Shown piece by piece: positions 15,346 to 33,892 of a DNA stretch of 64,000 nt. The first letter of the stretch is position 1. Every line of letters begins with the position of its first letter. The notes under the pieces are model-generated. The model was given only the letters and a program-made list of their open reading frames with translations, did not search any database and was not told the DNA's origin. The position numbers and the translations under genes are program-made. Origin of the DNA: Patescibacteria group bacterium (GTDB lineage: Bacteria > Patescibacteriota > Microgenomatia > Levybacterales > UBA12049); NCBI GenBank assembly GCA_038064195.1, contig JBBTTO010000004.1, forward strand, positions 2,357 to 66,356. The letters run 5' to 3'.

Positions 15346-15756
15346 ATGAATGATCTTTTACCAAGAAGCTTTTGGAGATTTCCGATAATTTCTTTTCCAT
15401 CGTTTATGGAAGACATCGAGGATCTCCTCCCAACATCAAATTTCTTAAACGGGTTATCTGTATTAGAAGACGATAAGAATGTCTATATTGAAGCATCAGT
15501 ACCAGGTCTTGACCCGAAAGAGGTAGATGTTACCTTTTCCAAAGGAGTGCTTACCATAAAAGGCGAGAAGAAGGAGGAAGAGAAAGGAAAGACGTTTCAC
15601 AGAAAAGCAACACGGTCTTTCTTCTATCGGGTAACACCAGGTGACGTTGACCCAAAGGCAGAGCCACAGGCAATATGTAAAAACGGAGTGATGACCGTAA
15701 CATTTGCAAAAGTGCATGAGGCAGAACCAAAAAAGATTGCAGTAAAAACTGCATGA
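15346..15756 (+). CDS. Hsp20/alpha-crystallin small heat-shock protein
   Basis: alpha-crystallin domain (VLEDDKNVYIEASVPGLDPKEVDV..GVLTIKGEK..NGVMTVTF); GGAGGTGA RBS. Confidence 0.85.
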   Translation: MNDLLPRSFWRFPIISFPSFMEDIEDLLPTSNFLNGLSVLEDDKNVYIEASVPGLDPKEVDVTFSKGVLTIKGEKKEEEKGKTFHRKATRSFFYRVTPGDVDPKAEPQAICKNGVMTVTFAKVHEAEPKKIAVKTA

Positions 15757-15878
15757 TTACAAAATGCGCTGGCAGGCTCGGGAAAAGGTAGGTGCGAAAA
15801 CGTGTCTACTGACAGTCTGCCAGCACAAAGAGCTTATCAAATTATTGTAAAAATACACTTGAAAGAAGGTGAGCATAC

Positions 15879-16283
15879 ATGAAGAAAATAAGTGTTACAA
15901 CAACAAAAGATAAAGAGGTTGTCGATATAACAGATGAGATAAATACGGTCCTTACAAAAAGCAAGACAAAAGATGGGCTTTGCCATTTATTCCTCCCTCA
16001 CTCAACAGCAGGCTTAACAACCGCGCTTATAAGTAGTGAGAATGAGCTTGATCTGATAGGCGTATTTGATATTGCTCTCCCACATATCACAAACCAACGA
16101 CATGAACATGAACATAGTCATATCATGAGCCGTTTACCCGATCATATTATTTCCTCTTTCCTTGGAACTTCTTTGGCAATTCCGATTAAAAATGGGGTAC
16201 TTGCCCTCGGAGAGTTTCAGCGAGTAGTACTGGTTGAGTTAAACGGACCGAGAAAACGTACTGTTATGTTGTATTACGATTGA
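15879..16283 (+). CDS. YjbQ/UPF0047 family protein
   Basis: HSTAGLTTALISSENE...GEFQRVVLVELNGP pattern typical of YjbQ. Confidence 0.65.
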   Translation: MKKISVTTTKDKEVVDITDEINTVLTKSKTKDGLCHLFLPHSTAGLTTALISSENELDLIGVFDIALPHITNQRHEHEHSHIMSRLPDHIISSFLGTSLAIPIKNGVLALGEFQRVVLVELNGPRKRTVMLYYD

Positions 16284-16295
16284 GAAAGAAGGATT

Positions 16296-17939
16296 ATGTA
16301 TTTTAAAGACAGAACAGAAGCAGGTCGGCTGCTTGCATACAAACTCAAAAAATATAGAGGTAAAGACGTTGTTGTTTATGCATTGCCAAGAGGTGGTGTT
16401 GTAACTGCGCTTGAAATAGCAAAGTATTTGGATGCTCCTTTAGATTTGATAATTACCCGAAAAATTGGCCACCCAGACAATCCCGAATATGCAATTGCAG
16501 CAACAGCTGAAAATGGACACCTTGTCGGGACTAAGGAAGAACTTGAGTCAGTTGATAAAGAATGGCTGAAAAAGGAAGTCTCAAAACAACGCCTTGAGGC
16601 AAGAAGAAGACGGGAACTCTATCTTGCTGGAAGAGCTGAAATCCAATCCCTTGGAAAAATAGCAATTCTCGTCGATGATGGTATCGCAACTGGGCTGACT
16701 ATGCGCAGCGGGATAAAAGAGCTCAAGCACAAAAAGCCCAAAAAAATTATTATCTCAGTCCCCATAATTCCCAAGACAACGGCCAGTATTCTAAATCAAG
16801 AAGCAAATGACGTAGTGGCGCTTGATATTCCTGAAGATTATGAATTCTTAGGTGCAGTAGGCGCGTACTATAGCGATTTTTCGCCAGTTGAAGATGAGGA
16901 GGTCATCGCAATGCTCAAGGCCTATGAAAAACAGAGAAAAGAACCAATTAAACAAAATCAGGCATTTTTCTCACAACCACTAATTGATCCTACACTCTTT
17001 ACCTTTCCCTCACATAGATACATGGTTGAGAAGTTAAAAGAAATACCCAATCTTACTATTGGAAAATTTTCCCTGGAGCGTTTCCCCAATAACGAACTCT
17101 ATATTATGCTGCATACACATGCAACTGAGCGAGAATGTATCGTTGTTGGATCAATTTCTCCTCCTGACACGAACTTGATTTCTTTCCTTCTCCTGTGCCA
17201 CACATTAAAAAAAGAGAATGCGCATAGTATAACAGCAGTACTTCCTTATCTTGCCTATTCTCGTCATGATAAAAAAGAGTATCAAAGAAGTTATGCGACT
17301 GTACTTATCGGCGAATTACTCAGTACGTCAGGGGCAGATCGTGTTGTCACTGTTGATGTCCATAGTCTGCATGTAAAGCAGCTTTTTCCAATTCCGTTGA
17401 TTTCACTCTCTCCAGCCAAATTATTTGCCGAAGAATTGAAAAAGTTAAACTTACAAAACGTAACAATTGTTGCGCCGGATGAAGGAGCAATAAAACGCGC
17501 TGAAGCGGTAAGAAGAGAGGCAGGAATCAAAAAAGAAATTGCGTATGTTGTAAAAAAACGGACAGCTGATGGAGTAAAACTGATAGAGCTTCATGGAAAA
17601 GTAAGTAAAACTGCAGTTATTGTCGATGATATTCTTGATACCGGTAAAACGCTTATTTCCTGTTGCGAAAAACTCAAGGAAAAAGGCGCTCGGGATATAT
17701 ATATCATGGTTACCCATGGACAATTTAACGGCATTGAATGGAAGCAATTATGGAAACTTGGGGTAAAACGCATGTACTGTACAGATACTATTCCTTTACC
17801 AAAACATGCCAAATCGAAAAATATTACCGTTGTTTCAATTATTCCTTTACTTGTCGATGAATTAAAAGAGGAAAACAAGGATATATTTACCGTTGATGCA
17901 AGTCAACGATACAGCTTTTATGATTATGATGAGCGATAG
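16296..17939 (+). CDS. fusion protein: type I phosphoribosyltransferase domain + ribose-phosphate pyrophosphokinase (PRPP synthetase) domain
   Basis: N-terminal half has PRTase motif ILVDDGIATGLTM; C-terminal half has Prs motifs NELYIML...AVLPYLAYSRHDKK and VIVDDILDTGKTL. Confidence 0.75.
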   Translation: MYFKDRTEAGRLLAYKLKKYRGKDVVVYALPRGGVVTALEIAKYLDAPLDLIITRKIGHPDNPEYAIAATAENGHLVGTKEELESVDKEWLKKEVSKQRLEARRRRELYLAGRAEIQSLGKIAILVDDGIATGLTMRSGIKELKHKKPKKIIISVPIIPKTTASILNQEANDVVALDIPEDYEFLGAVGAYYSDFSPVEDEEVIAMLKAYEKQRKEPIKQNQAFFSQPLIDPTLFTFPSHRYMVEKLKEIPNLTIGKFSLERFPNNELYIMLHTHATERECIVVGSISPPDTNLISFLLLCHTLKKENAHSITAVLPYLAYSRHDKKEYQRSYATVLIGELLSTSGADRVVTVDVHSLHVKQLFPIPLISLSPAKLFAEELKKLNLQNVTIVAPDEGAIKRAEAVRREAGIKKEIAYVVKKRTADGVKLIELHGKVSKTAVIVDDILDTGKTLISCCEKLKEKGARDIYIMVTHGQFNGIEWKQLWKLGVKRMYCTDTIPLPKHAKSKNITVVSIIPLLVDELKEENKDIFTVDASQRYSFYDYDER

Positions 17940-17944
17940 AAACT

Positions 17945-18583
17945 ATGGAAAATTTAGTACGCATAAAAATCAACAGTATAACACTTGAAGGGATGTTGGC
18001 TATTCCTAAAAATGCAAAAGGAATTGTGCTTTTTGCGCATGGAAGCGGCAGCAGTAGATTATCTCCGCGCAATAATTTTGTCGCAACTGTTTTACAGAAG
18101 GCAGGGATTGGAACATTGCTCATAGATTTACTCACAGAACAAGAAGATGAGATATACCAAACCCGTTTTGACATCGACCTCTTAACTGATCGTCTCGTTA
18201 CCATAATAGAATGGCTTAACAAAAATTCTGACACGAAGCATCTATCTCTAGGGCTTTTTGGAGCAAGTACGGGTGCTGCATCTGCATTAAAGGTAGCGGC
18301 AAAACTTGGAAAAAAGATAAAAGCAGTCGTGTCCCGGGGTGGACGTCCTGATCTGGCAATGGATGTATTAGATAAAGTTACCTCACCTACTCTTCTTATT
18401 GTTGGAGGTAATGATTTCGGTGTTATTGAGCTTAATGAACAAGCATTTCAGGTATTAGGATCCACAAAAAAGCTAGAGATTGTTGAGGGAGCCACCCATT
18501 TATTTGAAGAAGAGGGGGCTTTAGCAGAGGTAGCACATCTTGCAACAAGTTGGTTTAAGAAGTATTTACCTAAACAAATTTAA
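17945..18583 (+). CDS. dienelactone-hydrolase-like alpha/beta hydrolase
   Basis: GIVLFAHGSGSS and nucleophile elbow FGASTGA. Confidence 0.7.
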   Translation: MENLVRIKINSITLEGMLAIPKNAKGIVLFAHGSGSSRLSPRNNFVATVLQKAGIGTLLIDLLTEQEDEIYQTRFDIDLLTDRLVTIIEWLNKNSDTKHLSLGLFGASTGAASALKVAAKLGKKIKAVVSRGGRPDLAMDVLDKVTSPTLLIVGGNDFGVIELNEQAFQVLGSTKKLEIVEGATHLFEEEGALAEVAHLATSWFKKYLPKQI

Positions 18584-18588
18584 AGATT

Positions 18589-19590
18589 ATGAAATTAGTC
18601 TTAGTTGGTGATGTCATGTTGGGTCGATTAGTTAATGAAGAACTAAAAAGAGAAAGTCCTAAGTTGCCTTGGGGAGATACATTGCCAATCTTTAAAAATG
18701 CGGATCTGAGAATTTGCAATTTGGAATGTGTTTTGTCAGATGTAGGAGAACCTTGGCCCAACAAAACTTTTCATTTTAGAACTGATGAGAAAAATATTCA
18801 GACGCTTCTGGCAGCAGAAATTGGCATGGTTTCGCTTGCCAATAATCATGCACTTGACTATGGCCATGAAGCACTGCTTCGCATGATGAAAATTTTAGGT
18901 GAAAATGCCATTAATTATGCTGGCATCGGACCAAATTTTTTAGAAGCAGCTGAGCCAGCAATCTGTCGTGTTAATTCTCAAAAAGTAGGGCTTCTTGCAT
19001 TTACCGATAATGAGCCTGACTGGGAGGCAAAAGAAAATAAGCCAGGATTATTTTACGTACCAATTGACCCCGATTCAATCGGGGTTGATGCAAGAGACAA
19101 GAGAGCGCAATATCTTTTTGAGCTAATTCAAAAAACCCGTGATGACGTTGATCTTCTTATAGTATCAGCACACTGGGGACCAAATTGGGGATATTCCCCC
19201 CCAAAGGAGCATATCGCCTTCGCTCACCTTCTTATTGACTCTGGTGCCGATATTATCTTTGGTCATTCTCCTCATGTCTTCCGGGGTATTGAGCTCTATA
19301 AAGACAAACCAATTTTCTATAGTTGCGGGAATTTTATCGACGATTACGCCGTAGATGAAATCGAGAGAAATGATGAGTCTTTCGTTTTTCTTCTTGAGAC
19401 AAAAAAGAGTGGAGTAACAAAACTCCAACTATATCCAACGCTCATCGCAAATTTTCAGGCGAAAAAAGCTCATTCTGAGGATGCAAGACGCATTGGCCTG
19501 CTTATGCAAAAACTCTCAAGTGAACTTGGAACACCTTCGCAGTGGAACAGAGCAAAAGAAATGTTAGAGATACAGATGACTATGAATTAA
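18589..19590 (+). CDS. CapA-family metallophosphoesterase (PGA_cap)
   Basis: LVGDVMLGR N-terminus and LANNHALDYG motif. Confidence 0.8.
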   Translation: MKLVLVGDVMLGRLVNEELKRESPKLPWGDTLPIFKNADLRICNLECVLSDVGEPWPNKTFHFRTDEKNIQTLLAAEIGMVSLANNHALDYGHEALLRMMKILGENAINYAGIGPNFLEAAEPAICRVNSQKVGLLAFTDNEPDWEAKENKPGLFYVPIDPDSIGVDARDKRAQYLFELIQKTRDDVDLLIVSAHWGPNWGYSPPKEHIAFAHLLIDSGADIIFGHSPHVFRGIELYKDKPIFYSCGNFIDDYAVDEIERNDESFVFLLETKKSGVTKLQLYPTLIANFQAKKAHSEDARRIGLLMQKLSSELGTPSQWNRAKEMLEIQMTMN

Positions 19591-19607
19591 GGAATTAACA
19601 GAAGCCC

Positions 19608-21047
19608 ATGGAAATAACACATCATATAAAACAAATAAACAATACGCTCTGGAAAGTCCCGGTCTCATTTCTTGACGGAATGCAGGTGCCGGTCTTCTTC
19701 TTTTTGGATGAAAAGACTCTCGATGATGTTTTGAAAACAGAGCTCGTTGACTACTTAGCAACGATTGCCACACTCCCGGGTATAAAACAAGCGGTTATAG
19801 CTTTGCCAAACTTGAGCCGAACAGATGGTGTTCCAAGCGGGGTGGTTATTGCATCAGATGCAATTGATGGATTTATTTTCCCAGCAGCAGTTGGTTATGA
19901 TATCAACTGTGGAGTCAGGATTTTACGAGCTGATTGCACAGAGGATGAGATAAAATCATCTACCCTAAAACTAGCAAGTCAACTCTTTCGCGAGATTCAT
20001 TCCACCATTGGCCATACACCTTCAATCAAGATTGGCACGGATAAGCTTGATAAGGTCTTACAGGAAGGGGCACATCGTCTCATCAAGGATGGTTTTGGAG
20101 AGGAAGTTGATTCCCATTATGTAGAATCGTTTGGCGTGCTTGAAAATGCAGATCCGCAAGCAATTTCTCAACATGCCAAGAAGAAAGGACGCGAACAGCT
20201 GGGTACATTAGGAGACGGAAGCCACTTTATCCAAATTGACAAGATAACTGAGATTTTCGATGAAGATGCAGCAAATGCATATAACATAAACAAGGGCCAA
20301 CTGATTATTCTTATTCATTCAGACTCAAGAGATCTTGGCCATCAGGTAGCAATTGAAGAGATCCATAAGGTCAAAGAGGAAATGACAAGATACTATAAAG
20401 GATCGGTGCCTTTTGAACTCAGCGGTGTTCCTGTCTCTTCTTTGGAAGGACAGAGATGTTTCAATGCCATGGCTGCAGCTGCAAATTTTGCCTTTGCCAA
20501 CAGGCAAATACTAACACATGAGCTTCGAAAGATATGGAAAGATATTCTGGGTAAATCATGCGGGTCGCTTCACGTGCTTTATGACCATGCACATAATCTT
20601 GCCAAACTTGAGTCTCATATGATTGAAGGACGAAAAGAGAGGCTTTTAGTTCATCGCAGAGGTGCAACACGTGCATTTGGACCAGAATCTTCTGAACTCC
20701 CGGCTGATTATCAGCCAGTTGGACAACCTCTCGTGCTTCTTGGAGCAATGGGAACACCCTCATATCTTCTGAGAGGGTCAGGGCTTGAACAGACATTCGC
20801 TTCAAGTAGCCACGGAGTCGGAAGAGTCATATCATTTACTCGCGGAAGAAAAGATATACAGGGGTCAGTTACAGTAGAAAGTCTTACAACAAAAGGTGTT
20901 ACTGTAGAAGTAGAAACACTTGCAGACATAGGAGGAGATGATCCAAAAACATATAAAAACGTCAACTCAGCTCTTCATATTTTGCAAGCGTCGGGCATTG
21001 CGTATCCCGTTGCACGGCTAGAACCAATTGTCATCGATAAAGGATGA
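19608..21047 (+). CDS. rtcB: RNA-splicing ligase RtcB (paralog 1)
   Basis: GYDINCGVRIL, HRRGATRAF, GAMGT.SY and SSHGVGR motifs. Confidence 0.9.
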   Translation: MEITHHIKQINNTLWKVPVSFLDGMQVPVFFFLDEKTLDDVLKTELVDYLATIATLPGIKQAVIALPNLSRTDGVPSGVVIASDAIDGFIFPAAVGYDINCGVRILRADCTEDEIKSSTLKLASQLFREIHSTIGHTPSIKIGTDKLDKVLQEGAHRLIKDGFGEEVDSHYVESFGVLENADPQAISQHAKKKGREQLGTLGDGSHFIQIDKITEIFDEDAANAYNINKGQLIILIHSDSRDLGHQVAIEEIHKVKEEMTRYYKGSVPFELSGVPVSSLEGQRCFNAMAAAANFAFANRQILTHELRKIWKDILGKSCGSLHVLYDHAHNLAKLESHMIEGRKERLLVHRRGATRAFGPESSELPADYQPVGQPLVLLGAMGTPSYLLRGSGLEQTFASSSHGVGRVISFTRGRKDIQGSVTVESLTTKGVTVEVETLADIGGDDPKTYKNVNSALHILQASGIAYPVARLEPIVIDKG

Positions 21048-21921
21048 GGGATTGGAGAAAAGTATGGATTATTTAATATTATTCATCTCAATACTCTTTT
21101 TTGTACAAATACTTATTCCTTTTGTGCAAAAAAGTCTTCTTTGGCGAAGACGACAATCTTTAATACGCACGCTTGAGCAAAAGAGGAAATCCAGAGTGAT
21201 TACACTGATTCATAGACAAGAGACATTGAGTCTCCTTGGAATTCCAATAACACGCTATATTGATATCGAAGATTCTGAGCAAGTTCTCAATGCGATACGC
21301 ATGACTCCACCCCACAAGGCGATCGACATAATTCTTCATACGCCCGGGGGGCTCGTTCTGGCAGCAGAGCAAATTGCATTCGCATTGAAGCTGCATGAGG
21401 GAAAGATAAGGGTCATTGTTCCACACTATGCTATGTCCGGGGGGACAATGATAGCCTTGGCTTCGGACAAGATCATTATGAGTCGTGCTGCTGCTTTAGG
21501 GTCGCTCGATCCCGTGCTTGGAAGTCCAGGCATAGGATATTACCCTGCGGCTTCTATTGTTCATGCCCTAAGCGTTCCCAATAGAAATCGAGAGGATACA
21601 ACCTTAATTTTGGGAGATATAGCTAAAAAAGGGTTAGATCAAATATATAAGTCTGTTTTTAAATTACTAAGTAAGCATTTTGATGAAAAAAAAGCGTCGT
21701 CACTGGCCTTCACCTTGACACAAGGGAGATGGACGCATGACCATCCGCTTTTTTTCGAACAAGTTAAAGATTTGGGATTACCTGTTACAGACAATGTTCC
21801 TAACGAAATTTATGAACTTATGCAACTTTACTCTCAGCCAACACGGATGAGAGGTGGGGTTGAGTTTATTCCCTCACCCTATGTAGCTCCCGCCCAAAAA
21901 CCAAAGGAGAAGAAAGAATGA
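21028..21921 (+). CDS. membrane-anchored Clp-fold serine protease (SDH/S49-like)
   Basis: N-terminal TM; ILHTPGGLVLAAEQIA...HYAMSGGTMIALASDKIIM..LGSLDP motifs. Confidence 0.6.
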   Translation: MSSIKDEGLEKSMDYLILFISILFFVQILIPFVQKSLLWRRRQSLIRTLEQKRKSRVITLIHRQETLSLLGIPITRYIDIEDSEQVLNAIRMTPPHKAIDIILHTPGGLVLAAEQIAFALKLHEGKIRVIVPHYAMSGGTMIALASDKIIMSRAAALGSLDPVLGSPGIGYYPAASIVHALSVPNRNREDTTLILGDIAKKGLDQIYKSVFKLLSKHFDEKKASSLAFTLTQGRWTHDHPLFFEQVKDLGLPVTDNVPNEIYELMQLYSQPTRMRGGVEFIPSPYVAPAQKPKEKKE

Positions 21922-22334
21922 AAACATTTACGATTATTCCACATACCGCAGATGTACGATTGAGGATTGAGGCAGACTCGCTTGAGAAACTTTTTGTAAG
22001 CTCCCTGAAGGGTATGAATAGAATATTGAATAAGGAATATGAGAAATACCTAGATAAGCATCCTATTCTCGAGGAGGTTTCTGTGACATCTTATGACAAA
22101 ACATCACTTTTGATTGATTTTCTCTCTGAAATTTTGACACGTTCTCATATGCATAAAGCAATTTTTCATACCATTGACCATTTCGGGATAGAAGGTAACT
22201 CTCTTCATGCCCATCTATTAGGAGCACCGGTGGATAAATTTACAGAAGACATAAAAGCTGTTACTTACCATGAGGCAGAGGTTAAAAAAAATGACAAAGG
22301 CGAATATGAGACAACTATTGTGTTTGATATTTGA
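21918..22334 (+). CDS. archease (RtcB activator)
   Basis: MKTFTIIPHTADVRLRIEADSLEKLF N-terminus and 138-aa size; 4-nt overlaps with both neighbours. Confidence 0.7.
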   Translation: MKTFTIIPHTADVRLRIEADSLEKLFVSSLKGMNRILNKEYEKYLDKHPILEEVSVTSYDKTSLLIDFLSEILTRSHMHKAIFHTIDHFGIEGNSLHAHLLGAPVDKFTEDIKAVTYHEAEVKKNDKGEYETTIVFDI

Positions 22335-22378
22335 TTTCAGAATACTCGAAAAACTCATCGAATCAGACTGAATATATT

Positions 22379-23827
22379 ATGAGTATCGATAAAAGCAATT
22401 TCAAAAAAATAAATGCTTATACCTGGCAGATACCTCAAACATTTAGAAGTGATATGCGTGTGCCGGCAATAATTTTCGCTAGCGAGAAGATGCTTGACGA
22501 CATTTTACAAGATAGGTCAATAGAACAACTTATCAATGTCACAACGCTTCCAGGTATCCGTAAGGCAGCACTTGTGATGCCTGACGCGCATGAAGGGTAC
22601 GGATTCCCAATTGGAGGTGTTGCTGCAACAAGCTTCCCAAATGGTGCTATTTCTCCAGGCGGTATTGGCTATGATATCAACTGCGGAGTCAAACTGCTTA
22701 AATCAGACCTCGAGGCATCCTCGCTCAATCACCACCAGGGGTTGCTTGCTAGAAGATTGTACGAGGAAATTCCATCTGGCGTTGGGCATGGTGGAAGACT
22801 GACATTGATTGAAAAACGGCTCGATGAGGTATTGGTAAAAGGAGCAGCATGGATAGTTGATAACGGATATGGGGAAAAGGAAGACATCCATTTTATTGAA
22901 TCTGAAGGATGTTTAGACAATGCTGATCCACAAGCTGTCTCAGATCACGCCAAAAAAAGAGGCAAAGATCAGTTGGGAACACTGGGTGCCGGAAATCACT
23001 TTGTTGAGGTTGATGTTATTGATGAAATTTTTGATGAGACTATTGCATCTACTTTTGGTTTGTCTCTCAATCAAGTCGTGGTACTCATCCATACAGGCTC
23101 CCGGGGACTTGGCCATCAAGTCGCAACCGATTATATCCGTATCATGAATCAATCCATGACAAAATACGGTATTAATGTTCCTGATCGAGAACTTGCCTGC
23201 GCTCCCTTATCTTCTCCTGAAGGAACAGCTTACTTCAATGCGATGGCTGCTAGTGCCAACTTTGCCTTTGCAAATAGAGAGTTGATAGCGTGGGAGGTCA
23301 GAAAAGTGTTTAAGGAAATGTTTGGAGAAAGACTCTCAACGCTTTATGACGTTGCTCACAATATCGCTAAAATTGAAGAGCATGTCATTAATGAAAAAAA
23401 ACGAAGCAGAAAAAAAGTAATTGTTCACAGAAAAGGTGCAACACGTGCATTTGGGCCAAATAGTCCTGAACTTATCGACGAATATAGTCTAACCGGTCAA
23501 CCAGTACTGATCCCGGGAAGTATGGGAACAGCATCATATGTTCTTGCGGGAACTACAGAGGCAATGGAGTTATCGTTTGGATCATGTTGCCATGGAGCAG
23601 GGAGAACATTATCCCGCCATGCTGCCAAAGCACAGATTTCAGGGAAAAAATTAAAGATAGATTTAGAAGAACAAGGAATATTTATTCAGGCCGGGTCAAT
23701 TTCAGACCTTGCTGAAGAAGCACCACTGGCCTACAAGAACATCCATGATGTTGTAGATGTCGTTGATAAAGTAGGGATTGCGAAAAAGGTTGCCAGGCTG
23801 AGACCTGCTGTTGTGGTCAAAGGGTAG
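22379..23827 (+). CDS. rtcB: RNA-splicing ligase RtcB (paralog 2)
   Basis: GYDINCGVKLL, HRKGATRAFGP and SCCHGAGR motifs; ORF-track start 22331 is TTG, first ATG at 22379. Confidence 0.9.
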   Translation: MSIDKSNFKKINAYTWQIPQTFRSDMRVPAIIFASEKMLDDILQDRSIEQLINVTTLPGIRKAALVMPDAHEGYGFPIGGVAATSFPNGAISPGGIGYDINCGVKLLKSDLEASSLNHHQGLLARRLYEEIPSGVGHGGRLTLIEKRLDEVLVKGAAWIVDNGYGEKEDIHFIESEGCLDNADPQAVSDHAKKRGKDQLGTLGAGNHFVEVDVIDEIFDETIASTFGLSLNQVVVLIHTGSRGLGHQVATDYIRIMNQSMTKYGINVPDRELACAPLSSPEGTAYFNAMAASANFAFANRELIAWEVRKVFKEMFGERLSTLYDVAHNIAKIEEHVINEKKRSRKKVIVHRKGATRAFGPNSPELIDEYSLTGQPVLIPGSMGTASYVLAGTTEAMELSFGSCCHGAGRTLSRHAAKAQISGKKLKIDLEEQGIFIQAGSISDLAEEAPLAYKNIHDVVDVVDKVGIAKKVARLRPAVVVKG

Positions 23828-23881
23828 TATGAGGAATCAGAACCATCAACCAACGCAGTATAAAAATTACAAGTAGGAAAT

Positions 23882-24115
23882 ATGGGGAAAGCTAAACAAA
23901 TACAAAAATATCTGCCTTATGTTCCTTTGTGGGAGTTAGAGATAGAAGAGCTTACTGGTCATAATATAGAAATGCAAGGAAGGCAGGATGTAAATAAGCT
24001 GCTCAAAGCGGGGTGGATTTTGCTACATATTTACACGCTTCGTTATCAAGAAGACGGGGTATGGAGGGAGCGGCCAATGGCAATCTTAGGAAAACCAAAA
24101 AGGGGCAAACGTTAA
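23882..24115 (+). CDS. small hypothetical protein
   Basis: 77-aa ORF with AGGAAA RBS 4 nt upstream. Confidence 0.35.
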   Translation: MGKAKQIQKYLPYVPLWELEIEELTGHNIEMQGRQDVNKLLKAGWILLHIYTLRYQEDGVWRERPMAILGKPKRGKR

Positions 24116-24223
24116 TTTTATATTTAAACGTCTTAGAGCTTCTCCTGTATACGATGGATTAATTCTCAATCTTTAAAAGACTGGAAAAAATCTGTGACCT
24201 AAATCACTTTCATTCTTTGATTA

Positions 24224-24706
24224 TTGTCAATGCGAAATACCCTCTTCCTAACGTATTATATTATTATGCATTTTACAATTACGACAAAGCTATTCCATAT
24301 TTCAGATAAAGACTGTCAGTATATAGAAAAACTAGTAAAAAAACTTTTGCAGCTCACACCTTGGAAGGAACCAGACTACCCGCTTCTTGACATACTCCTC
24401 CGAAAGCACAGGAAGAAAAGCCTTGATCATATTGAAAAAAGGCTTATTTTGGAAGGTGCTATACAACCCAAACACGGACACGAAACAATTGATAATCCTG
24501 TATATTATGACGGCACTTTAGATCTTATTCTTCCAAAGAAACGTATTGTGGCAAATATGCTGGGTAAAACAGTACATGAGGCTCTCAAAGATGGGTTTGA
24601 CGAGTTGTTCCTGGAACTTGATAAGTATAAGGGACTACATTTTGCTAATGACAGCGAGTATTACAACCATAGGACAATTCGACAAAATAGGAAAGAAATC
24701 TTATGA
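24224..24706 (+). CDS. hypothetical protein, translationally coupled to the eRF1-like gene
   Basis: 160-aa ORF; its stop overlaps the next ATG (ATGA). Confidence 0.45.
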   Translation: MSMRNTLFLTYYIIMHFTITTKLFHISDKDCQYIEKLVKKLLQLTPWKEPDYPLLDILLRKHRKKSLDHIEKRLILEGAIQPKHGHETIDNPVYYDGTLDLILPKKRIVANMLGKTVHEALKDGFDELFLELDKYKGLHFANDSEYYNHRTIRQNRKEIL

Positions 24707-25164
24707 AAACGATGCAAAAACATAACAAATATTTAGTACTTCTAGTAGATAGAAAACGTGCTCGAATGTTTACCATGAGTAATGGCGTTGTTGAGGCAGA
24801 TGAAGAGCTGATCATTAATGACGTTCCGCAGAAGGTAAAGCACGGCGATGATACTTGGGATGCACAGAATAAAATCTTTCGCCATATCGAAGATCATTTA
24901 CACCGACACTTAACGCTTATTGCCCAAAATACGGCTTCTTACGCTAAGAAAAATAATATAAACAGAGTAATAATTGGAAGTCACAAACCGTTATTTTCAA
25001 AAATCAAAAAACATCTTCCCTATCCGCTTAATAAAAAAGTAGAAGGAACATTTGTTACAGAGCTTAAAGCACCGTTTGGTGAGATAGTCAAGCGGGCAAA
25101 AAATTGCATTGAAAGAGTTGAGGGTAGCGAGGAGGTAAAAAGATATGAAAAATACTTTGCTTAG
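24703..25164 (+). CDS. Host_attach / bacterial eRF1-like (baeRF) family protein
   Basis: YLVLLVDRKRARMF N-terminus and mid-region RHIEDHLHRHL...NRVIIGSH...IKKHLP pattern. Confidence 0.5.
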   Translation: MKTMQKHNKYLVLLVDRKRARMFTMSNGVVEADEELIINDVPQKVKHGDDTWDAQNKIFRHIEDHLHRHLTLIAQNTASYAKKNNINRVIIGSHKPLFSKIKKHLPYPLNKKVEGTFVTELKAPFGEIVKRAKNCIERVEGSEEVKRYEKYFA

Positions 25165-25528
25165 AATAGATACTATTCTTTTTTGGTTACCAAAAATTCT
25201 TGCAATATTATTTATAGGCTTTCTTGCTATCTTTGCATTTGATGTTTTTGAACCACGGGAATCTATTGTGTATGTGATCGGAGCATTTCTTATCCACCTT
25301 ATTCCAAATTTTATTCTCGCAATACTATTGTTTATCGCTTGGAAAAAAGAAAAGCTGGGAGGAGCACTTTTTATACTACTCGCGTTCGTCTTTACAATCT
25401 ATTTCCGAACCTACACACACTTCGTAAACTTTTTACTAGTCTCCTTCCCTGTATTTTTAATTGGAGCATTATTTCTCTTGCATACATATCTGATTGAAAA
25501 AAGGGGAGGAATATATGAAAAAGATTAG
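25145..25528 (+). CDS. hypothetical membrane protein
   Basis: 127 aa with four hydrophobic segments. Confidence 0.5.
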   Translation: MKNTLLRIDTILFWLPKILAILFIGFLAIFAFDVFEPRESIVYVIGAFLIHLIPNFILAILLFIAWKKEKLGGALFILLAFVFTIYFRTYTHFVNFLLVSFPVFLIGALFLLHTYLIEKRGGIYEKD

Positions 25529-25599: not shown

Positions 25600-25673
25600 T
25601 GGCTGCGGGACATGGATTCGAACCATGGTAAACGGATCCAAAGTCCGTTGTCCTACCTTTAGACGATCCCGCA
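25600..25673 (-). tRNA. tRNA-Gln (anticodon UUG)
   Basis: cloverleaf with U1-A72, anticodon loop CUUUGGA, T-arm CATGG-TTCGAAT-CCATG, 3' GCCA. Confidence 0.85.
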
Positions 25674-25676
25674 AAG

Positions 25677-25916
25677 TTATTTGAGCCTTCGATTAAGATA
25701 AGCTCTTCCAAAACCAGTTTTCAGCTGTTTTTCTCTGTTAATTGCAGCTGATTTCTTCAGACATGCTTCGTAATAAACAAGAGCAAAAGGTATTCTTAGT
25801 CTAGTCGAGCTGACATTCCCTAAATTATGCTCATTTATCCGAGAAACCAAGTCATCAGTCCAACCAATGTATAATTCATTATCCTTTTTACTCTTCAATA
25901 CGTATGTATAAAACAT
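25677..25916 (-). CDS. GIY-YIG nuclease family protein
   Basis: MFYTYVLKS..ELYIGWTDDLVSRINEHN GIY-YIG core; start taken at the internal ATG with AAAGG RBS. Confidence 0.7.
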   Translation of the reverse strand: MFYTYVLKSKKDNELYIGWTDDLVSRINEHNLGNVSSTRLRIPFALVYYEACLKKSAAINREKQLKTGFGRAYLNRRLK

Positions 25917-25934
25917 ACCTTTAGACGACCCGCC
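25916..25934 (-). repeat. duplicated 5' fragment of tRNA-Gln
   Basis: GCGGGTCGTCTAAAGGTA matches tRNA-Gln 5' end GCGGGATCGTCTAAAGGTA at 18/19. Confidence 0.6.
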
Positions 25935-26293
25935 TGCAGCGCTATGCAAGCGAAGCGCACCATTGCGAGCAGGTCCCGCAGTGTACCCAATATTGTAGCA
26001 TACAATAGCCTCAAAATGGAGGTTTTTAGGTATTATGGAGATCAAGTGGCTCATAAATCCACCCCATAGTTTGACCTTGATATCCCTTTTTGTTATTATC
26101 TCCCCACTCAAGATAAGTATTGATGGGCAATTGCGTTCATTTTTTGCTACTTGAGTATATTTTACATATTTCGCTCGTTTACATATTCAGTTGTTTGTAA
26201 TTAGTTCTTCAAGCTGCATCCACGAGGTCTCTCCTAAGGCTTGGTGGGTGCAGCTTGCACCGGGGTAACTTCGTCGTATCCAGGAGGATAAAC

Positions 26294-26827
26294 ATGACAC
26301 GCAGATCCAAGCCCGGTGAGAGTCAGTCTCCAACCGAAACTACGAGTCAGGATGTGGTGGAAACGCCCACAAAATCCGAGGACGACAAGGTCGCTCGTCC
26401 AAGGAGTGTAACTCACTACCGATGCTCTTTCTGCAATAAAGGCCAGGAAGAGGTCCGGCGTCTCATCGCCGGCCCGAATCGGGTCTACATCTGCGACGAA
26501 TGTGTGCAGCTCTGCCGCGAGATTATCGAAGAGGAGGAACCCGCAAAAGCGGTCATTCAAGATGCCCGCCGGCGTGCGCAGCAGAACGTGGAGAGCCTCA
26601 AAACCACACAACGTCTCCTGAGCGCTGCTCAAACCCTGCTGGAACCCGCATCGATGAATGACGGATTCGTTTCCGACGAGCTGCGTAAGCAGCTTGAGAC
26701 ACAATGCGTCCAGGCCATCCAGAAGGCCGGCGCTAGCTTCGGCCTGAAGTTGGTTCCCGTCGAAGACGCAACTCCGACAGCGGACGAGGCGGGCAGCCAG
26801 AATGGCATCGACGATACCACGGAGTAA
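26294..26827 (+). CDS. stand-alone ClpX-type C4 zinc-finger (ZBD) domain protein
   Basis: [31 protein letters not shown] almost identical in pattern to the ClpX N-terminal ZBD; AGGAGG RBS; ~60% GC. Confidence 0.7.
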
Positions 26828-26983
26828 CAGCTGATTCATGCGAGAGAAAGCACCCCACTGATTCCGAAAGGAGTCTCTCCACGAAAGTGGTATTCGAAAG
26901 AGTAGGGGTGTTTTTGCTATTTATATGCAATTGAAAATATATTACGAAAATAAGAACTTCCGACATTGCTAACTAATACTAGC

Positions 26984-29115: not shown

Positions 29116-29187
29116 GCGGGGGTAGTTCAGCGATAGAACGCTTCCTTGCCAAGGAAGAGGTCGCGGGTTTGATTCCCGTTCCCCGCT
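29116..29187 (+). tRNA. tRNA-Gly (anticodon GCC)
   Basis: acceptor GCGGGGG/TCCCCGC, anticodon loop TTGCCAA, T-loop TTTGATT. Confidence 0.85.
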
Positions 29188-29229
29188 CATAATCAGTTCT
29201 CCCACAAAATGTCTTAAGGACACAACTCT

Positions 29230-29302
29230 GCTGAGGTAGCCAAGGTGGTCAAGGCACCTGTCTGAAGAACAGGCCATGTCAGTTCGACTCTGACCCTCAG
29301 CA
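29230..29302 (+). tRNA. tRNA-Phe (anticodon GAA)
   Basis: acceptor GCTGAGG/CCTCAGC, anticodon loop CTGAAGA, T-arm GTCAG-TTCGACT-CTGAC; unusual 3-bp D-stem. Confidence 0.7.
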
Positions 29303-29329
29303 CCCGCTACCCGCTACCCGCTACCCGCT
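29302..29329. repeat. tandem heptamer (ACCCGCT) x4, same unit as at 5305
   Basis: acccgct repeated four times starting at the tRNA-Phe discriminator base. Confidence 0.85.
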
Positions 29330-29346
29330 TATGATATGATAGAGTC

Positions 29347-29607
29347 ATGAGCATACAGGATATCTTTTATTCTCTCGGGATTTTCTTCATGGTACTCGGG
29401 ATCACAATCCTGGTTATGATCATCGCCCTCCTCTGGACCATCAAACAAAAGATAACCTTTATCCATGATCTGGTTGAAAGACAAGTCATCAGACTTACCG
29501 GGAACTCAACCGATGTAGCCATGGAGCTGGGATCTAAAGTCGCCTCAGCCGCTGTTCGAAGAGTGAGAGACGCAATCACGAAGAAAAAGGAAGACTCCTC
29601 AATATAG
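29347..29607 (+). CDS. small hypothetical membrane protein
   Basis: 86 aa with one N-terminal TM and a basic C-terminus. Confidence 0.4.
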   Translation: MSIQDIFYSLGIFFMVLGITILVMIIALLWTIKQKITFIHDLVERQVIRLTGNSTDVAMELGSKVASAAVRRVRDAITKKKEDSSI

Positions 29608-29697
29608 CCTTTTTACGAAAATACTGACCCCTACTTTCCTAAATGTATCTTTTCTCTTATAATGAGCAGACAAATATTGCCTATAGAAGCTACGAAA

Positions 29698-29780
29698 TGC
29701 GGATGTGGTGAAATGGTATACACGCTGGCTTCAGGTGCCAGTGCCCGCAAGGGTGTGGAGGTTCAACTCCTCTCATCCGC
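29698..29780 (+). tRNA. tRNA-Leu (anticodon CAG)
   Basis: long variable arm; anticodon loop TTCAGGT; acceptor GCGGATG/CATCCGC. Confidence 0.85.
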
Positions 29781-29837
29781 ACATAGACCTACTGTAGATA
29801 GTTTCGTAGAGCGTAATTTGGTATAATCGGTGAACTC

Positions 29838-29923
29838 GCGGATGTGGTGAAATGGTATACACGCTACCTTGAGGTGGTAGTGCCCGCAAGGGTGTGGAGG
29901 TTCAACTCCTCTCATCCGCACCA
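29838..29923 (+). tRNA. tRNA-Leu (anticodon GAG)
   Basis: near-identical to the previous Leu apart from anticodon stem-loop TTGAGGT; encoded CCA; TGgTATAAT promoter upstream. Confidence 0.85.
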
Positions 29924-29997
29924 GGGCGATTAGCTCAGCTGGCTAGAGCGCTTCATTTACACTGAAGATGTCGGGGGTTCAAATCCCTCATCGCCCA
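29924..29997 (+). tRNA. tRNA-Val (anticodon UAC)
   Basis: GGGCGAT acceptor, anticodon loop TTTACAC, begins directly after the Leu CCA. Confidence 0.85.
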
Positions 29998-30059
29998 CAT
30001 TTCTTTCTCTCCTCTTGCTTGACAACAAAATGAGAATTTGACATGATGGATGATACTCC

Positions 30060-30638
30060 ATGAGGAAGTTACTTCTGCTCACAACTTTCTTTAGTCTTAC
30101 TCCTGTGATCTTAGTTATCGCACTTGTCGGGCTACTGACACTTTTCCACCATAGTAAGACCTACTTAGCCCTTAAAAGCCCCTATCAGCATACAGTCGCT
30201 TTCGCAGCACTCCCTTCAGCCCAAAATAGTTTCAGCGATACCATCAAAAGTGCTGACGCACGCAGTGAAATCCTCACTCAATTCTTTGCCAAATACAATT
30301 CACCGCTTAAGCCTTATGCCTCTGAATTCGTCAAGAAAGCAGAGGAGTATGAGCTTGACTTCAGACTCCTGCCGGCTATAGCCATGCAAGAAACCAATCT
30401 TTGTCTTAAATCTCATGAGGACTCATATAATTGTTGGGGGTTTGGTGTGCATGGGGGAAAGTATCTCTACTTTGACAGTTATCCTCAGGCTATTGATACT
30501 ATCTCAAAGGCTCTAGCGCAGCGCTACCGTGACCGGCACGGCCTGGTAACACCCGCGGAAATCCAAAAGCTTTACAATCCGACTAATACCAATGCCTGGG
30601 CCTCAAGTGTGGATCACTTCATGAATTCACTGCAATAA
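30060..30638 (+). CDS. secreted glucosaminidase-like (GH73/FlgJ-type) peptidoglycan hydrolase
   Basis: N-terminal TM; LPAIAMQETNL region with catalytic-Glu context, YNCWGFG. Confidence 0.55.
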   Translation: MRKLLLLTTFFSLTPVILVIALVGLLTLFHHSKTYLALKSPYQHTVAFAALPSAQNSFSDTIKSADARSEILTQFFAKYNSPLKPYASEFVKKAEEYELDFRLLPAIAMQETNLCLKSHEDSYNCWGFGVHGGKYLYFDSYPQAIDTISKALAQRYRDRHGLVTPAEIQKLYNPTNTNAWASSVDHFMNSLQ

Positions 30639-30732
30639 TACTTTTTAGCACATAATTTGTGTTCAATCCTCGTTAAATTATTTAGCCTCATATCGAGGCT
30701 AAATAACTTTCTTACAATTTAGTGATAAATAC

Positions 30733-30761
30733 TTGACAAACCTATAGTCATTTGCTATAAT
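30733..30761 (+). promoter_or_regulatory. consensus sigma70-type promoter (TTGACA-17-TGcTATAAT)
   Basis: perfect -35 TTGACA, 17-bp spacer, TATAAT with extended TG. Confidence 0.6.
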
Positions 30762-30816
30762 CCTCGCAGGTCCTGAGGTCAGATATCCAACATCCGACGT
30801 CGGGATCCTTAAGAAT

Positions 30817-30847
30817 CCTAATACAGCAATGTATTAGGTTTTTTTTT
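30817..30847 (+). terminator. intrinsic terminator ending an ~80-nt leader
   Basis: CCTAATAC-AGCAAT-GTATTAGG followed by T9. Confidence 0.65.
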
Positions 30848-30947
30848 GGAATAACAATCTATTCTTTATAGGTCGTCATTCGACTCAATTCACATGAGAA
30901 AAAAGGCTCAGCCAGTTCTTATGCGAATTAAGACGAAGGGAAAACTT

Positions 30948-31511: not shown

Positions 31512-31613
31512 TTACCTTATAATAGCTTCCACACCTCTTAACCCTCTCGGTAGGAGAGGGGGGACTACCTTTTGGTAGTGGATGAGGTATTACATTCGTA
31601 AACGTTTTGACGA

Positions 31614-31696
31614 GCCCAGGTGGTGAAATGGTAGACACGATAGGTTTAGGACCTATTGCTCGTAAGAGTATGGGGGTTCAAGTCCTCTCCTGGGCA
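31614..31696 (+). tRNA. tRNA-Leu (anticodon UAG)
   Basis: acceptor GCCCAGG/CCTGGGC, anticodon loop TTTAGGA, long variable arm. Confidence 0.85.
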
Positions 31697-31700
31697 CAAT

Positions 31701-31825: not shown

Positions 31826-31897
31826 CTAGATAGGACGTTCTCTTCAAATGAATGAATAGCTTGATAGGTAGAGCCAATGTGGCATGTTGTAGAGGAT

Positions 31898-32398: not shown

Positions 32399-32435
32399 TT
32401 TATAGATATACTTTAGATATTAAATAGGTATATTT

Positions 32436-32958: not shown

Positions 32959-33049
32959 TTCTTTCTTCATTCCTCAAGGCTTGATATAGCTCCATCCTTC
33001 CGCACATTTTCTTCTCGACTCCTCGATCTAAGCGTGCTATAATAGCCTC

Positions 33050-33877: not shown

Positions 33878-33892
33878 TAGAGTCACGCCAAG

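What the first reader, a model, noticed from the sequence alone, without database searches (positions are those of the whole stretch)
24224..25164. eRF1-like (Host_attach/baeRF) gene pair immediately downstream of the RtcB operon
The 24703..25164 protein has the YLVLLVDRKRARMF N-terminus and a RHIEDHLHRHL..NRVIIGSH..IKKHLP core reminiscent of Host_attach / bacterial archaeo-eukaryotic release-factor-like proteins. It is translationally coupled (ATGA) to an uncharacterised 160-aa partner. Release-factor-like proteins (PrfH, Pelota) are known RtcB partners in other bacteria, so this may be a ribosome-rescue component working with the upstream RNA-ligase module.
Basis: inference. Interest (0 to 1): 0.6.

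Follow-up and report, generated by a model that had tools for sequence, protein, structure and literature searches.

The report
Ribosome-hibernation gene pair beside RtcB
Two overlapping genes in a Patescibacteria (candidate phyla radiation) genome encode a very divergent ribosome hibernation factor (HPF/RaiA) and a one-domain relative of the archaeal/eukaryotic release factor eRF1, a pairing already described by comparative genomics and most likely used to silence and protect ribosomes under stress, next to RNA-repair genes.

Summary
The genes are real. Gene 2 (24703-25164, 153 aa) belongs to Pfam baeRF_family10 (58 bits, cut-off 27.1), not to Host_attach (E=0.12). It consists only of the eRF1 middle domain. 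Its model (pLDDT 86.6) matches Balon and eRF1 middle domains (TM about 0.7).

The "uncharacterised 160-aa partner" starts at ATG 24266 (146 aa). It is a divergent short HPF/RaiA hibernation factor with an insert of about 30 aa and a conserved C-terminal tail. It has no direct Pfam hit. Its relatives pass the PF02482 cut-off, and the family profile hits solved HPFs (E=2e-5).

In 39 related loci, an HPF-like gene lies in 17, and in 16 of them it sits directly upstream of baeRF10 or one gene away. RtcB lies in 5, always together with the HPF-like gene, in three separate clades and in different gene orders. Other frequent neighbours are a Crp/Fnr regulator, Hsp20, USP and a phosphoribosyltransferase.

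Best reading: a Balon/RaiA-like module that silences ribosomes, placed in a stress island that also carries RtcB-archease RNA repair. A PrfH-like rescue role is less likely but not excluded, because the GGQ-equivalent loop is the most conserved part of the protein.

The baeRF-1/HPF neighbourhood (Burroughs & Aravind 2019) and Balon's RaiA, RtcB and Hsp20 neighbours (Helena-Bueno 2024) are already published. This is a new member of a known kind.

The parts
24266..24706 (+). Divergent short HPF/RaiA-family ribosome hibernation factor (146 aa). It carries an insert of about 30 aa between strands beta2 and beta3, and a conserved C-terminal tail YKGxHFxxDSEYxxHxTIR.
   Evidence: Start fixed by the alignment of 21 relatives. 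No direct Pfam or NCBIfam hit. Profile-linked relatives pass the PF02482 gathering score (28.4, 30.7 and 31.9 bits against 23.7). The family profile hits solved HPFs (9sda_9 at 1.9e-5, 4hei_A at 3.7e-5). hhalign against E. coli HPF gives E=8.5e-5 over residues 1-124 against 1-91. JGI names one relative RaiA. The AF2 model is poor (pLDDT 48).
24703..25164 (+). baeRF family 10 protein (153 aa), made only of the aeRF1 middle (RNase H-like) domain. The loop and helix VPQKVKHGDDTWDAQNKIFRHIEDHLHRHL are almost invariant.
   Evidence: PF18854 at 58 bits against 27.1. AF2 pLDDT 86.6 with topology bbb-loop-a-b-a-b-a. Foldseek top hits are Balon homologue Msmeg1130 (8v9l_z, E=9e-8, TMq 0.71), eRF1 (6zme) and Balon (8rd8_B, TMq 0.72). 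Conservation.
24703..24706 (+). ATGA overlap of the HPF-like stop codon and the baeRF10 start codon (translational coupling).
   Evidence: In the 11 genome loci where the two genes are directly adjacent, the junction is at most about 20 nt, either overlap or gap.
25145..25528 (+). DUF7670 small membrane protein. It overlaps the baeRF10 3' end by 20 nt.
   Evidence: PF24709 at 98 bits. A DUF7670 gene is present in 9 of 39 related loci, usually directly downstream of baeRF10.
24116..24265 (.). 150-nt AT-rich spacer upstream of the pair. It could hold the pair's own promoter (inferred, not shown).
   Evidence: No terminator-like or convincing promoter-like site in the spacer itself. No Rfam match.
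23882..24115 (+). 77-aa ORF of unknown function between RtcB and the pair.
   Evidence: No Pfam, NCBIfam or PADLOC hit. Called by public gene callers. No counterpart in related loci, where RtcB abuts the HPF-like gene (7 nt in L001, 47 nt in L008).
21918..23827 (+). Archease (21918-22334) and RtcB_b (22331-23827), an archaeal-type RNA ligase pair.
   Evidence: PF01951 at 93 bits and PF01139 at 562 bits. TIGR03073 release_rtcB scores 163 against a cut-off of 272, so it is not the PrfH-partner type. Orthologues at 67-72% identity lie next to the pair in L001, L005, L008 and L028; L045 also has RtcB and archease close to the pair.
15346..21921 (+). Upstream genes on the same strand: Hsp20, UPF0047, a PRTase/PRPP-synthetase fusion, dienelactone hydrolase, PGA_cap, the paralogue RtcB_a, and an SDH-type ClpP-like protease.
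   Evidence: Pfam. The same families recur around baeRF10 in relatives.

Best explanation
The two overlapping genes form a ribosome-silencing (hibernation) module.

The 146-aa protein is a specialised short HPF/RaiA. Like other members of that family, it should sit in the 30S mRNA/tRNA channel at the decoding centre. The 153-aa protein is a minimal aeRF1 middle domain. It should dock in the 50S A site and push its highly conserved loop and helix towards the peptidyl-transferase centre, as the middle domains of eRF1 and Balon do. Together they would close both active centres of idle ribosomes during stress or starvation.

Unlike Balon, this protein has no N domain to touch the decoding centre and no C domain to bind EF-Tu. 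It probably relies on the co-translated HPF-like partner.

The pair lies in a stress island with Hsp20 and the RtcB-archease RNA ligase. The link to RtcB is best read as joint deployment of ribosome protection and RNA repair.

Shown: family memberships, the fold, gene coupling and the neighbourhood statistics. Inferred: ribosome binding, the binding sites, a non-catalytic action and co-regulation.
For: - ORF2 is PF18854 baeRF_family10. Its confident model matches Balon and eRF1 middle domains.
- ORF1 belongs to the HPF/RaiA family by profile evidence.
- Start and stop codons overlap (ATGA) here. The junction is at most about 20 nt in the 11 genome loci where the genes are directly adjacent.
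- The HPF-like gene lies in 17 of 39 related loci and is adjacent in 16, across all major clades of the baeRF10 tree.
- Searching from the HPF-like side, 5 of the 6 distinct loci with enough downstream sequence carry baeRF10 right after it.
- Neighbours are stress genes: Crp/Fnr regulator in 19 loci, PRTase in 12, Hsp20 in 6, USP in 5, PCMT in 2. Hsp20 lies upstream in this window.
- Four HPF-like::PCMT fusion proteins exist.
- Burroughs & Aravind 2019 (PMC6514570) report a persistent baeRF-1/HPF operon and propose A-site blockers acting with HPF.
- Helena-Bueno 2024 (PMC10901736) show that the aeRF1-like protein Balon binds the A site together with RaiA on hibernating ribosomes. Its most frequent neighbour is RaiA, followed by Hsp20 and RtcB.
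- The protein has no GGQ. The two loop glutamines are not invariant (Q43 84%, Q55 88%).
Against: - No experiment exists on any family-10 member.
- The window ORF1 has no direct HPF hit, and its structure model failed (pLDDT 48).
- The loop plus helix (residues 41-70) is the most conserved part of ORF2, and its length is fixed in 114 of 116 relatives. Burroughs & Aravind consider that pattern typical of catalytic families and single out family 10 as possibly active.
- Balon's ribosome contacts depend partly on N and C domains that are missing here.
- 22 of 39 loci have baeRF10 without an HPF-like neighbour, so it can act without this partner being encoded nearby.
Confidence: 0.55

Rival explanations
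1. Rescue-and-repair module analogous to PrfH-RtcB2. In this reading baeRF10 is an active peptidyl-tRNA hydrolase. It frees nascent chains from ribosomes stalled by RNA damage, RtcB-archease then religates the broken rRNA or tRNA, and the HPF-like protein parks the ribosome meanwhile.
For: - RtcB lies in 5 of 39 loci, only where the HPF-like gene is also present (5/17 against 0/22, Fisher p=0.011).
- These loci fall in three clades with different gene orders, and gaps are as small as 7 nt or a 4-nt overlap with archease.
- The loop is highly conserved, of fixed length, and carries glutamines.
- Burroughs & Aravind name family 10 as a possible peptidyl hydrolase.
- PrfH-RtcB2 is a proven precedent (abstracts of PMC9304027 and PMC9223846).
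Against: - There is no GGQ. In the profile alignment to archaeal aRF1, GGQ lies opposite H47-G48-D49...D53-A54-Q55, and Q43 lies opposite a Gly/Lys.
- Q43 and Q55 are replaced in 12-16% of relatives.
- There is no domain to sense an empty or damaged decoding centre.
- 34 of 39 loci have no RtcB within 8 kb.
- The RtcB is the archease-dependent type, below the TIGR03073 cut-off.
- HPF occupancy of the tRNA sites is incompatible with a P-site peptidyl-tRNA on the same ribosome (established HPF structural biology).
Confidence: 0.2
2. The adjacency to RtcB has no mechanistic meaning. The pair and the RtcB operon are independent members of a loosely syntenic stress island, so they are co-regulated at most. 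In this window they may be separate transcription units.
For: - A 438-nt gap containing an unrelated 77-aa ORF and a 150-nt AT-rich spacer separates them here.
- RtcB is absent from 34 of 39 loci.
- Many other unrelated stress genes share the neighbourhood.
Against: Linkage recurs in three clades despite rearrangement. The junctions look operonic in L001, L008 and L028. RtcB co-occurs only with the HPF-like gene.
Confidence: 0.15
3. baeRF10 is a metal-dependent or Vms1/ANKZF1-like enzyme that cuts the tRNA 3' end, or another RNA, on the ribosome. That would leave ends which RtcB-type chemistry can handle.
For: - The conserved loop and helix are rich in His, Asp and Glu (H47, D49, D50, D53, H61, E63, D64, H65, H67, H69).
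- The domain has an RNase H-like fold.
- One locus (L045) has an MBL-fold hydrolase between RtcB and the pair.
- The Vms1 clade of the same superfamily is reported to act as a tRNA nuclease (my own knowledge, not checked here).
Against: The Foldseek match to Vms1 is weak (6r84_R, E=2.4e-3, TMq 0.44). No nuclease motif was identified. The idea is purely inferential.
Confidence: 0.05

Closest known systems
baeRF-1 / HPF conserved gene neighbourhood (Burroughs & Aravind 2019, PMC6514570); Pfam PF18854 baeRF_family10
   Same: It is the same protein family by HMM. It shows the same operonic association with an HPF/YfiA-family gene. The conserved glutamine-bearing loop noted for family 10 is present, as is loss of the flanking domains.
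   Different: The HPF partner here belongs to a clade that Pfam and NCBIfam models do not detect. It has an insert of about 30 aa and a conserved tail. Family 10 occurs both as a form of about 260 aa (N + M domains) and, as here, as an M-domain-only form. The extra recurrent partners (RtcB-archease, Crp/Fnr, a Zn-ribbon protein, DUF7670, PCMT) did not turn up in the passages of that paper that I searched.
Balon + RaiA ribosome hibernation (Helena-Bueno et al. 2024, PMC10901736; PDB 8rd8, 8v9l)
   Same: An aeRF1-superfamily protein lacking GGQ is encoded next to a RaiA/HPF gene in stress loci that also hold Hsp20 and RtcB. The middle-domain fold matches (TMq 0.71-0.72).
   Different: Balon has three domains: N with the HP motif at the decoding centre, M with the lasso loop and bL27 trap, and C binding EF-Tu. 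This protein has only M. The NCBIfam Balon models score 15 and 11 bits against cut-offs of 330 and 320. The loop here is strongly conserved, unlike in most Balon-type families.
PrfH-RtcB2 rescue/repair operon
   Same: A release-factor-like protein is encoded beside an RtcB RNA ligase.
   Different: PrfH is a bacterial-type (RF1/RF2-fold) factor with GGQ and a decoding-site sensor, and it partners a TIGR03073-type RtcB. Here the factor is aeRF1-type, lacks GGQ, has a single domain and is coupled to HPF. The RtcB is archease-dependent.
ArfB/ICT1 (single-domain release-factor-like rescue factors)
   Same: A small protein built around one release-factor catalytic-type domain, without a codon-reading domain.
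   Different: ArfB has an unrelated fold (bacterial RF-PH domain), keeps GGQ, and uses a basic C-terminal tail as an mRNA-channel sensor.

Membership tests
Pfam PF18854 baeRF_family10 | HMM score above the gathering cut-off | tested here: met
   58.0 bits against 27.1, covering residues 4-133 against profile positions 10-139 of 143. Relatives carry the same precomputed domain.
aeRF-1 superfamily (middle domain) | RNase H-like fold with a long loop between strand 3 and the following helix | tested here: met
   AF2 pLDDT 86.6 with strands 9-15, 19-26 and 29-37, loop 38-50 and helix 51-84. Foldseek hits Balon, eRF1, aRF1 and Pelota with E from 1e-7 to 1e-4.
Classical aeRF1 (active release factor) | GGQ motif in the loop | tested here: not met
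   The loop reads VPQKVKHGDDTWDAQ and has no GGQ. The aRF1 GGQ aligns opposite HGD...DAQ. Q43 is conserved in 84% and Q55 in 88% of relatives.
Classical aeRF1 / Pelota / Balon | Three-domain N-M-C architecture (decoding-centre domain and GTPase/EF-Tu-binding domain) | tested here: not met
   The 153-aa protein is fully accounted for by the M domain. The upstream gene overlaps its start, so no domain has been cut off.
Balon (NCBIfam NF052287 / NF052289 ribosome hibernation factors) | HMM score above the curated cut-off | tested here: not met
   15 bits against 330, and 11.4 bits against 320.
Balon-like function | Binds the ribosomal A site and inhibits translation | not testable with these tools
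   Needs binding assays, cryo-EM or in vitro translation.
Pfam PF10116 Host_attach | HMM score above the gathering cut-off | tested here: not met
   13.4 bits against 26.7, E=0.12.
HPF/RaiA/YfiA (Pfam PF02482 Ribosomal_S30AE), for ORF1 | Direct HMM hit of the window protein | tested here: not met
   No hit even at E<=10. A profile built from close relatives only finds no PDB HPF, and its hhalign against E. coli HPF gives E=0.065.
HPF/RaiA/YfiA (Pfam PF02482 Ribosomal_S30AE), for ORF1 | Homology through family profiles, collinear over the whole b-a-b-b-b-a core | tested here: met
   Relatives linked to ORF1 at E from 1e-17 to 1e-63 score 28.4, 30.7 and 31.9 bits against 23.7 over profile positions 2-86 of 88. 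Profile A3 hits 9sda_9 at 1.9e-5, 4hei_A at 3.7e-5 and 4v8h at 6.9e-4, with both halves aligned. hhalign against E. coli HPF gives E=8.5e-5, probability 60%.
HPF/RaiA/YfiA, for ORF1 | HPF fold in a structure model | tested here: inconclusive
   AF2 with 21 sequences gave pLDDT 48. Only the two helices at the expected positions were formed.
PrfH-RtcB2 module | Bacterial-type RF homologue (PrfH) plus a TIGR03073 release_rtcB ligase | tested here: not met
   ORF2 is aeRF1-type. RtcB_b scores 162.7 bits and RtcB_a 109.6 bits against the cut-off of 271.8.
Known anti-phage defence systems (PADLOC) | Any HMM hit for the pair or its neighbours | tested here: not met
   No hits at E<=0.01 for 8 proteins.

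The most novel reading that the evidence does not exclude
Family-10 baeRF proteins are not passive plugs. They would be active enzymes: an archaeal-type, GGQ-less peptidyl-tRNA hydrolase, or a Vms1-like tRNA-end nuclease that uses the invariant loop and His-rich helix. A dedicated HPF-like adaptor would guide them to the ribosome, and they would be functionally tied to RtcB-archease repair. That would amount to a bacterial rescue/repair pathway built from archaeo-eukaryotic parts and working without any GTPase.
Probability: 0.15. Interest if true: 0.7.

Novelty: new member of a known kind. Interest (0 to 1): 0.35.

Why it matters
If the module works as proposed, it is the smallest Balon-like arrangement seen so far. 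One eRF1 middle domain plus a tailored HPF would close both ribosomal active centres without EF-Tu, in ultra-small Patescibacteria whose ribosomes are already unusual. That would help define which parts of Balon-type factors are really needed.

The analysis also shows that a whole clade of HPF proteins escapes current family models, so surveys of "HPF-less" bacteria may undercount hibernation factors.

The repeated pairing with RtcB-archease, PCMT and Hsp20 suggests that ribosome storage is genetically bundled with RNA and protein repair.

The general idea is already published, so the value lies in a well-defined test case rather than a new principle.

Tried and rejected
- Direct Pfam and NCBIfam scans of ORF1 gave nothing.
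- A profile of close relatives only (A1) found no HPF in the PDB and gave hhalign E=0.065 against E. coli HPF. Homology became visible only after adding divergent relatives taken from genome loci.
- AF2 of ORF1 with 21 sequences failed (pLDDT 48), so no fold search was run on that model.
- I expected the long proteins in the exhaustive search to be HPF::baeRF fusions. They are HPF::PCMT fusions instead.
A1 gave only 8 loci, several of them duplicates of genome loci.
- Host_attach membership is rejected.
- A defence-system reading is rejected, with no PADLOC hits.
- An RNA element in the spacer is rejected, with no Rfam match.
- A horizontally acquired island by base composition is not evident: GC is 0.38 in 24-26 kb against about 0.42 for the window.
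- No Crp, USP, PCMT, cupin or Zn-ribbon homologues occur in this 64-kb window.
- The 77-aa ORF is not related to the Zn-ribbon family that occupies the same position in relatives.

Full report
**1. Observation**

The + strand carries ORF 24224-24706 and ORF 24703-25164, which overlap by ATGA. Both are genuine genes.
- The 153-aa protein has 213 relatives at E<=1e-3. The best reach 1.5e-74, and named ones come from Candidatus Levybacteria and other Patescibacteria.
- The partner has 21 close relatives, one of them an identical 146-aa NCBI protein from a 'Patescibacteria group bacterium' MAG.
- Public gene callers call the same genes on 11 metagenome contigs.
- Almost all relatives of the partner begin at MHFTITTK; three have short, non-conserved N-terminal extensions. 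The start is therefore ATG 24266 (146 aa), not TTG 24224.
- A third gene, DUF7670 (25145-25528), overlaps the baeRF gene by 20 nt.
- RtcB_b ends at 23827. A 77-aa ORF and a 150-nt AT-rich spacer lie between it and the pair. The spacer has no Rfam match and no terminator-like site.

**2. The release-factor-like protein**

Pfam places it in PF18854 baeRF_family10 (58 bits against a cut-off of 27.1). Three other models stay below threshold: eRF1_2 (20.7 against 27.1), Host_attach (13.4 against 26.7, E=0.12) and the NCBIfam Balon models (15 and 11 bits against 330 and 320).

AlphaFold2 with 116 sequences gives a confident model (pLDDT 86.6). It has three strands, a 13-residue loop, a long helix, then b-a-b-a. 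Foldseek against the PDB returns these top hits:
- the mycobacterial Balon homologue Msmeg1130 (8v9l_z, E=9.3e-8, TMq 0.71);
- human eRF1 on the ribosome (6zme);
- Balon (8rd8_B, TMq 0.72);
- the isolated eRF1 middle domain (2hst, TMt 0.70).

The protein is therefore a stand-alone aeRF1 middle domain. Relatives come in two forms: about 132-176 aa like this one, and about 260 aa with an extra N-terminal domain that has no Pfam model.

The most conserved part is the loop plus the first turns of the helix (residues 41-70).
- P42, V45, I58, R60, H61 and H65 are invariant.
- The length of segment 37-58 is identical in 114 of 116 sequences.
- There is no GGQ. In a profile alignment to crenarchaeal aRF1, the GGQ lies opposite H47-G48-D49...D53-A54-Q55, and Q43 lies opposite a Gly.
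- Q43 is present in 84% and Q55 in 88% of relatives. They are well conserved but not invariant.

**3. The partner**

ORF1 has no direct hit in Pfam, NCBIfam or PADLOC. A profile built from its close relatives sees no HPF. An HMM built from those relatives does find 12 more divergent homologues in genome loci (E from 1e-17 to 1e-76), and those make the link.
- Several pass the gathering score of PF02482 Ribosomal_S30AE, the HPF/RaiA/YfiA family (28.4, 30.7 and 31.9 bits against 23.7), over the full profile.
- A combined profile hits solved hibernation factors: 9sda_9 at 1.9e-5, V. cholerae YhbH (4hei) at 3.7e-5, and 4v8h at 6.9e-4. The N-terminal half (b1-a1-b2) and the C-terminal half (b-strands plus a2) align collinearly.
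- hhalign against authentic E. coli HPF (taken from NC_000913.3) gives E=8.5e-5 over residues 1-124 against 1-91 of 95.
- JGI annotates one relative as RaiA.

ORF1 is thus a divergent short HPF. It has an insert of about 30 residues between b2 and b3, and a family-specific conserved tail (YKGxHFxxDSEYxxHxTIR; S130 invariant). The AF2 model was too poor to use (pLDDT 48). The clade is small: 100 representative clusters in 1.84 billion proteins.

**4. Genomic context in relatives**

I examined 39 non-redundant baeRF10 loci other than the window: 32 GTDB genomes, 3 metagenome loci and 4 assembly contigs.

| Neighbour within the locus | Loci (of 39) |
|---|---|
| Crp/Fnr regulator | 19 |
| HPF-like gene | 17 |
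| Phosphoribosyltransferase | 12 |
| Zn-ribbon acidic protein, about 80 aa | 11 |
| DUF7670 | 9 |
| Dienelactone hydrolase | 6 |
| Hsp20 | 6 |
| RtcB | 5 |
| USP | 5 |
| Archease | 4 |
| PCMT | 2 |

- In 16 of the 17 HPF-like loci, the gene sits directly upstream of baeRF10 or one gene away. In the 11 genome loci where the two genes are directly adjacent, the junction is a 4-17 nt overlap or a gap of at most 19 nt.
- RtcB occurs only where the HPF-like gene is present (5/17 against 0/22; Fisher one-sided p=0.011).
- On a neighbour-joining tree of the middle domain, the RtcB-linked loci fall in three separate clades.
- Gene orders differ. L001 has RtcB-HPF-baeRF with a 7-nt gap. L008 has archease-RtcB-HPF-baeRF with a 47-nt gap. 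L028 has HPF-baeRF-archease-RtcB with a 4-nt overlap. L005 is divergent. L045 has two genes in between.
- In this window the co-directional block 15346-25528 reads: Hsp20, UPF0047, PRTase/PRPP-synthetase, DLH, PGA_cap, RtcB_a, SDH-type protease, archease, RtcB_b, orf77, HPF-like, baeRF10, DUF7670.

**5. Mechanism**

The best-supported reading is a hibernation module. HPF-family proteins occupy the 30S mRNA/tRNA channel (established knowledge). aeRF1 and Balon middle domains reach the peptidyl-transferase centre from the A site (PMC10901736). Balon and RaiA bind the same ribosome, and Balon genes most often neighbour RaiA, then Hsp20 and RtcB among others. Burroughs & Aravind had already reported the 'persistent operonic association' of baeRF-1 families with HPF. 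They proposed A-site insertion acting together with HPF (PMC6514570).

What differs here is the extreme reduction: no N domain and no C domain, hence no decoding-centre contact and no EF-Tu handle. The HPF partner is also specialised. I infer, but have not shown, that its insert or tail compensates for the missing domains.

The main rival is a catalytic release or rescue role coupled to RtcB, like PrfH-RtcB2.
- For it: the very strong, length-constrained conservation of the loop; Burroughs & Aravind's remark that family 10 may be active; and the non-random RtcB linkage.
- Against it: the absence of GGQ, the non-invariant glutamines, the lack of any sensor domain, an RtcB that is not of the PrfH-partner type, and the absence of RtcB from 34 of 39 loci.

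I put hibernation at 0.55, rescue at 0.20, mere co-location with RtcB at 0.15 and a nuclease or metal-enzyme reading at 0.05.

**6. Comparison and novelty**

The protein is a member of PF18854. It is not a member of Host_attach, classical aeRF1, Pelota, Balon (by HMM and by architecture) or the PrfH-RtcB2 system. The kind of system, an aeRF1-like protein plus HPF in a stress locus sometimes with RtcB, is already in the literature. This is therefore a new member of a known kind.

Four points look new in detail: the HPF clade that Pfam and NCBIfam models do not detect, the M-domain-only form coupled to it, the restriction of RtcB linkage to HPF-containing loci, and the HPF::PCMT fusions. Neither a literature search nor term searches within the papers read turned up any mention of family 10, single-domain Balon-like factors or HPF::PCMT fusions.

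**7. Verdict**

Interest is 0.35. It is a clean, testable case for specialists in ribosome hibernation, but not a surprise.

Noticed in passing
P0142, P0152, P0194, P0196; locus L015 6527-8414: Four independent 50%-identity clusters are fusions of this HPF-like domain to a protein-L-isoaspartate O-methyltransferase (PCMT, 178-199 bits). In L015 the HPF-like gene, PCMT and baeRF10 are three adjacent genes. This suggests repair of aged ribosomal proteins on stored ribosomes. The 2025 bioRxiv survey of HPF fusions contains none of the terms isoaspartate, methyltransferase or PCMT.
   Followed up: partly
L003, L004, L008, L011, L018, L019, L021, L039, L046, L047, L048, e.g. L047 7745-7984: A conserved 75-87-aa protein with a CPxC...CxxC zinc ribbon and an acidic tail sits directly upstream of baeRF10, or of the HPF-like/baeRF10 pair, in 11 of 39 loci. 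In L008 it is downstream instead. It has no Pfam family and is absent from this window. It may be a further partner.
   Followed up: partly
window 19608-21047 and 22331-23827: There are two RtcB paralogues in one operon, separated by an SDH-type ClpP-like protease and archease. RtcB_b is the conserved orthologue (67-72% identity to relatives). RtcB_a is divergent (40-48% identity to the relatives' RtcB). Read by eye from the translation, it has GDGSHF where RtcB_b has GAGNHF.
   Followed up: no
window 15346-19590 and related loci: Hsp20, UPF0047, a PRTase/PRPP-synthetase fusion, dienelactone hydrolase and PGA_cap travel with the RtcB/HPF/baeRF10 genes in several relatives (L027, L045). A Crp/Fnr-type regulator is the commonest neighbour of baeRF10 elsewhere (19 of 39 loci) but is missing from this 64-kb window.
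   Followed up: partly
window 23882-24115: A 77-aa ORF rich in Lys and Arg at its C-terminus lies between RtcB_b and the pair. It has no family hit and no counterpart in related loci, where RtcB directly abuts the HPF-like gene.
   Followed up: partly
window 26234-26839 (-) and 26255-26827 (+): Two ORFs of about 190-200 aa overlap almost completely on opposite strands in a stretch of higher GC (0.47). The + strand ORF carries a ClpX-type C4 zinc finger (70.7 bits) but no ATPase domain.
   Followed up: no
window 25600-25673 (-) and 25677-26111 (-): tRNA-Gln(ttg) lies directly after the DUF7670 gene on the opposite strand, next to a GIY-YIG domain protein. GIY-YIG genes also occur near baeRF10 in L012, L013 and L016. 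A further cluster of seven tRNA genes lies at 29116-36172.
   Followed up: no
L045 6785-7513: In the 77%-identical relative, an MBL-fold hydrolase (Apyc1/Lactamase_B_2-like) and DUF3175 sit between RtcB and the HPF-like gene. MBL-fold enzymes include RNA 3'-end processing enzymes (my own knowledge), which may bear on the RNA-repair theme.
   Followed up: no
loci L001, L003, L005, L006, L011-L013 and others: Many GTDB records that carry this Patescibacteria-type locus are titled 'uncultured Gammaproteobacteria bacterium'. The title is probably a placeholder or a mislabel, given the gene content and the close identity to Levybacteria proteins.
   Followed up: no
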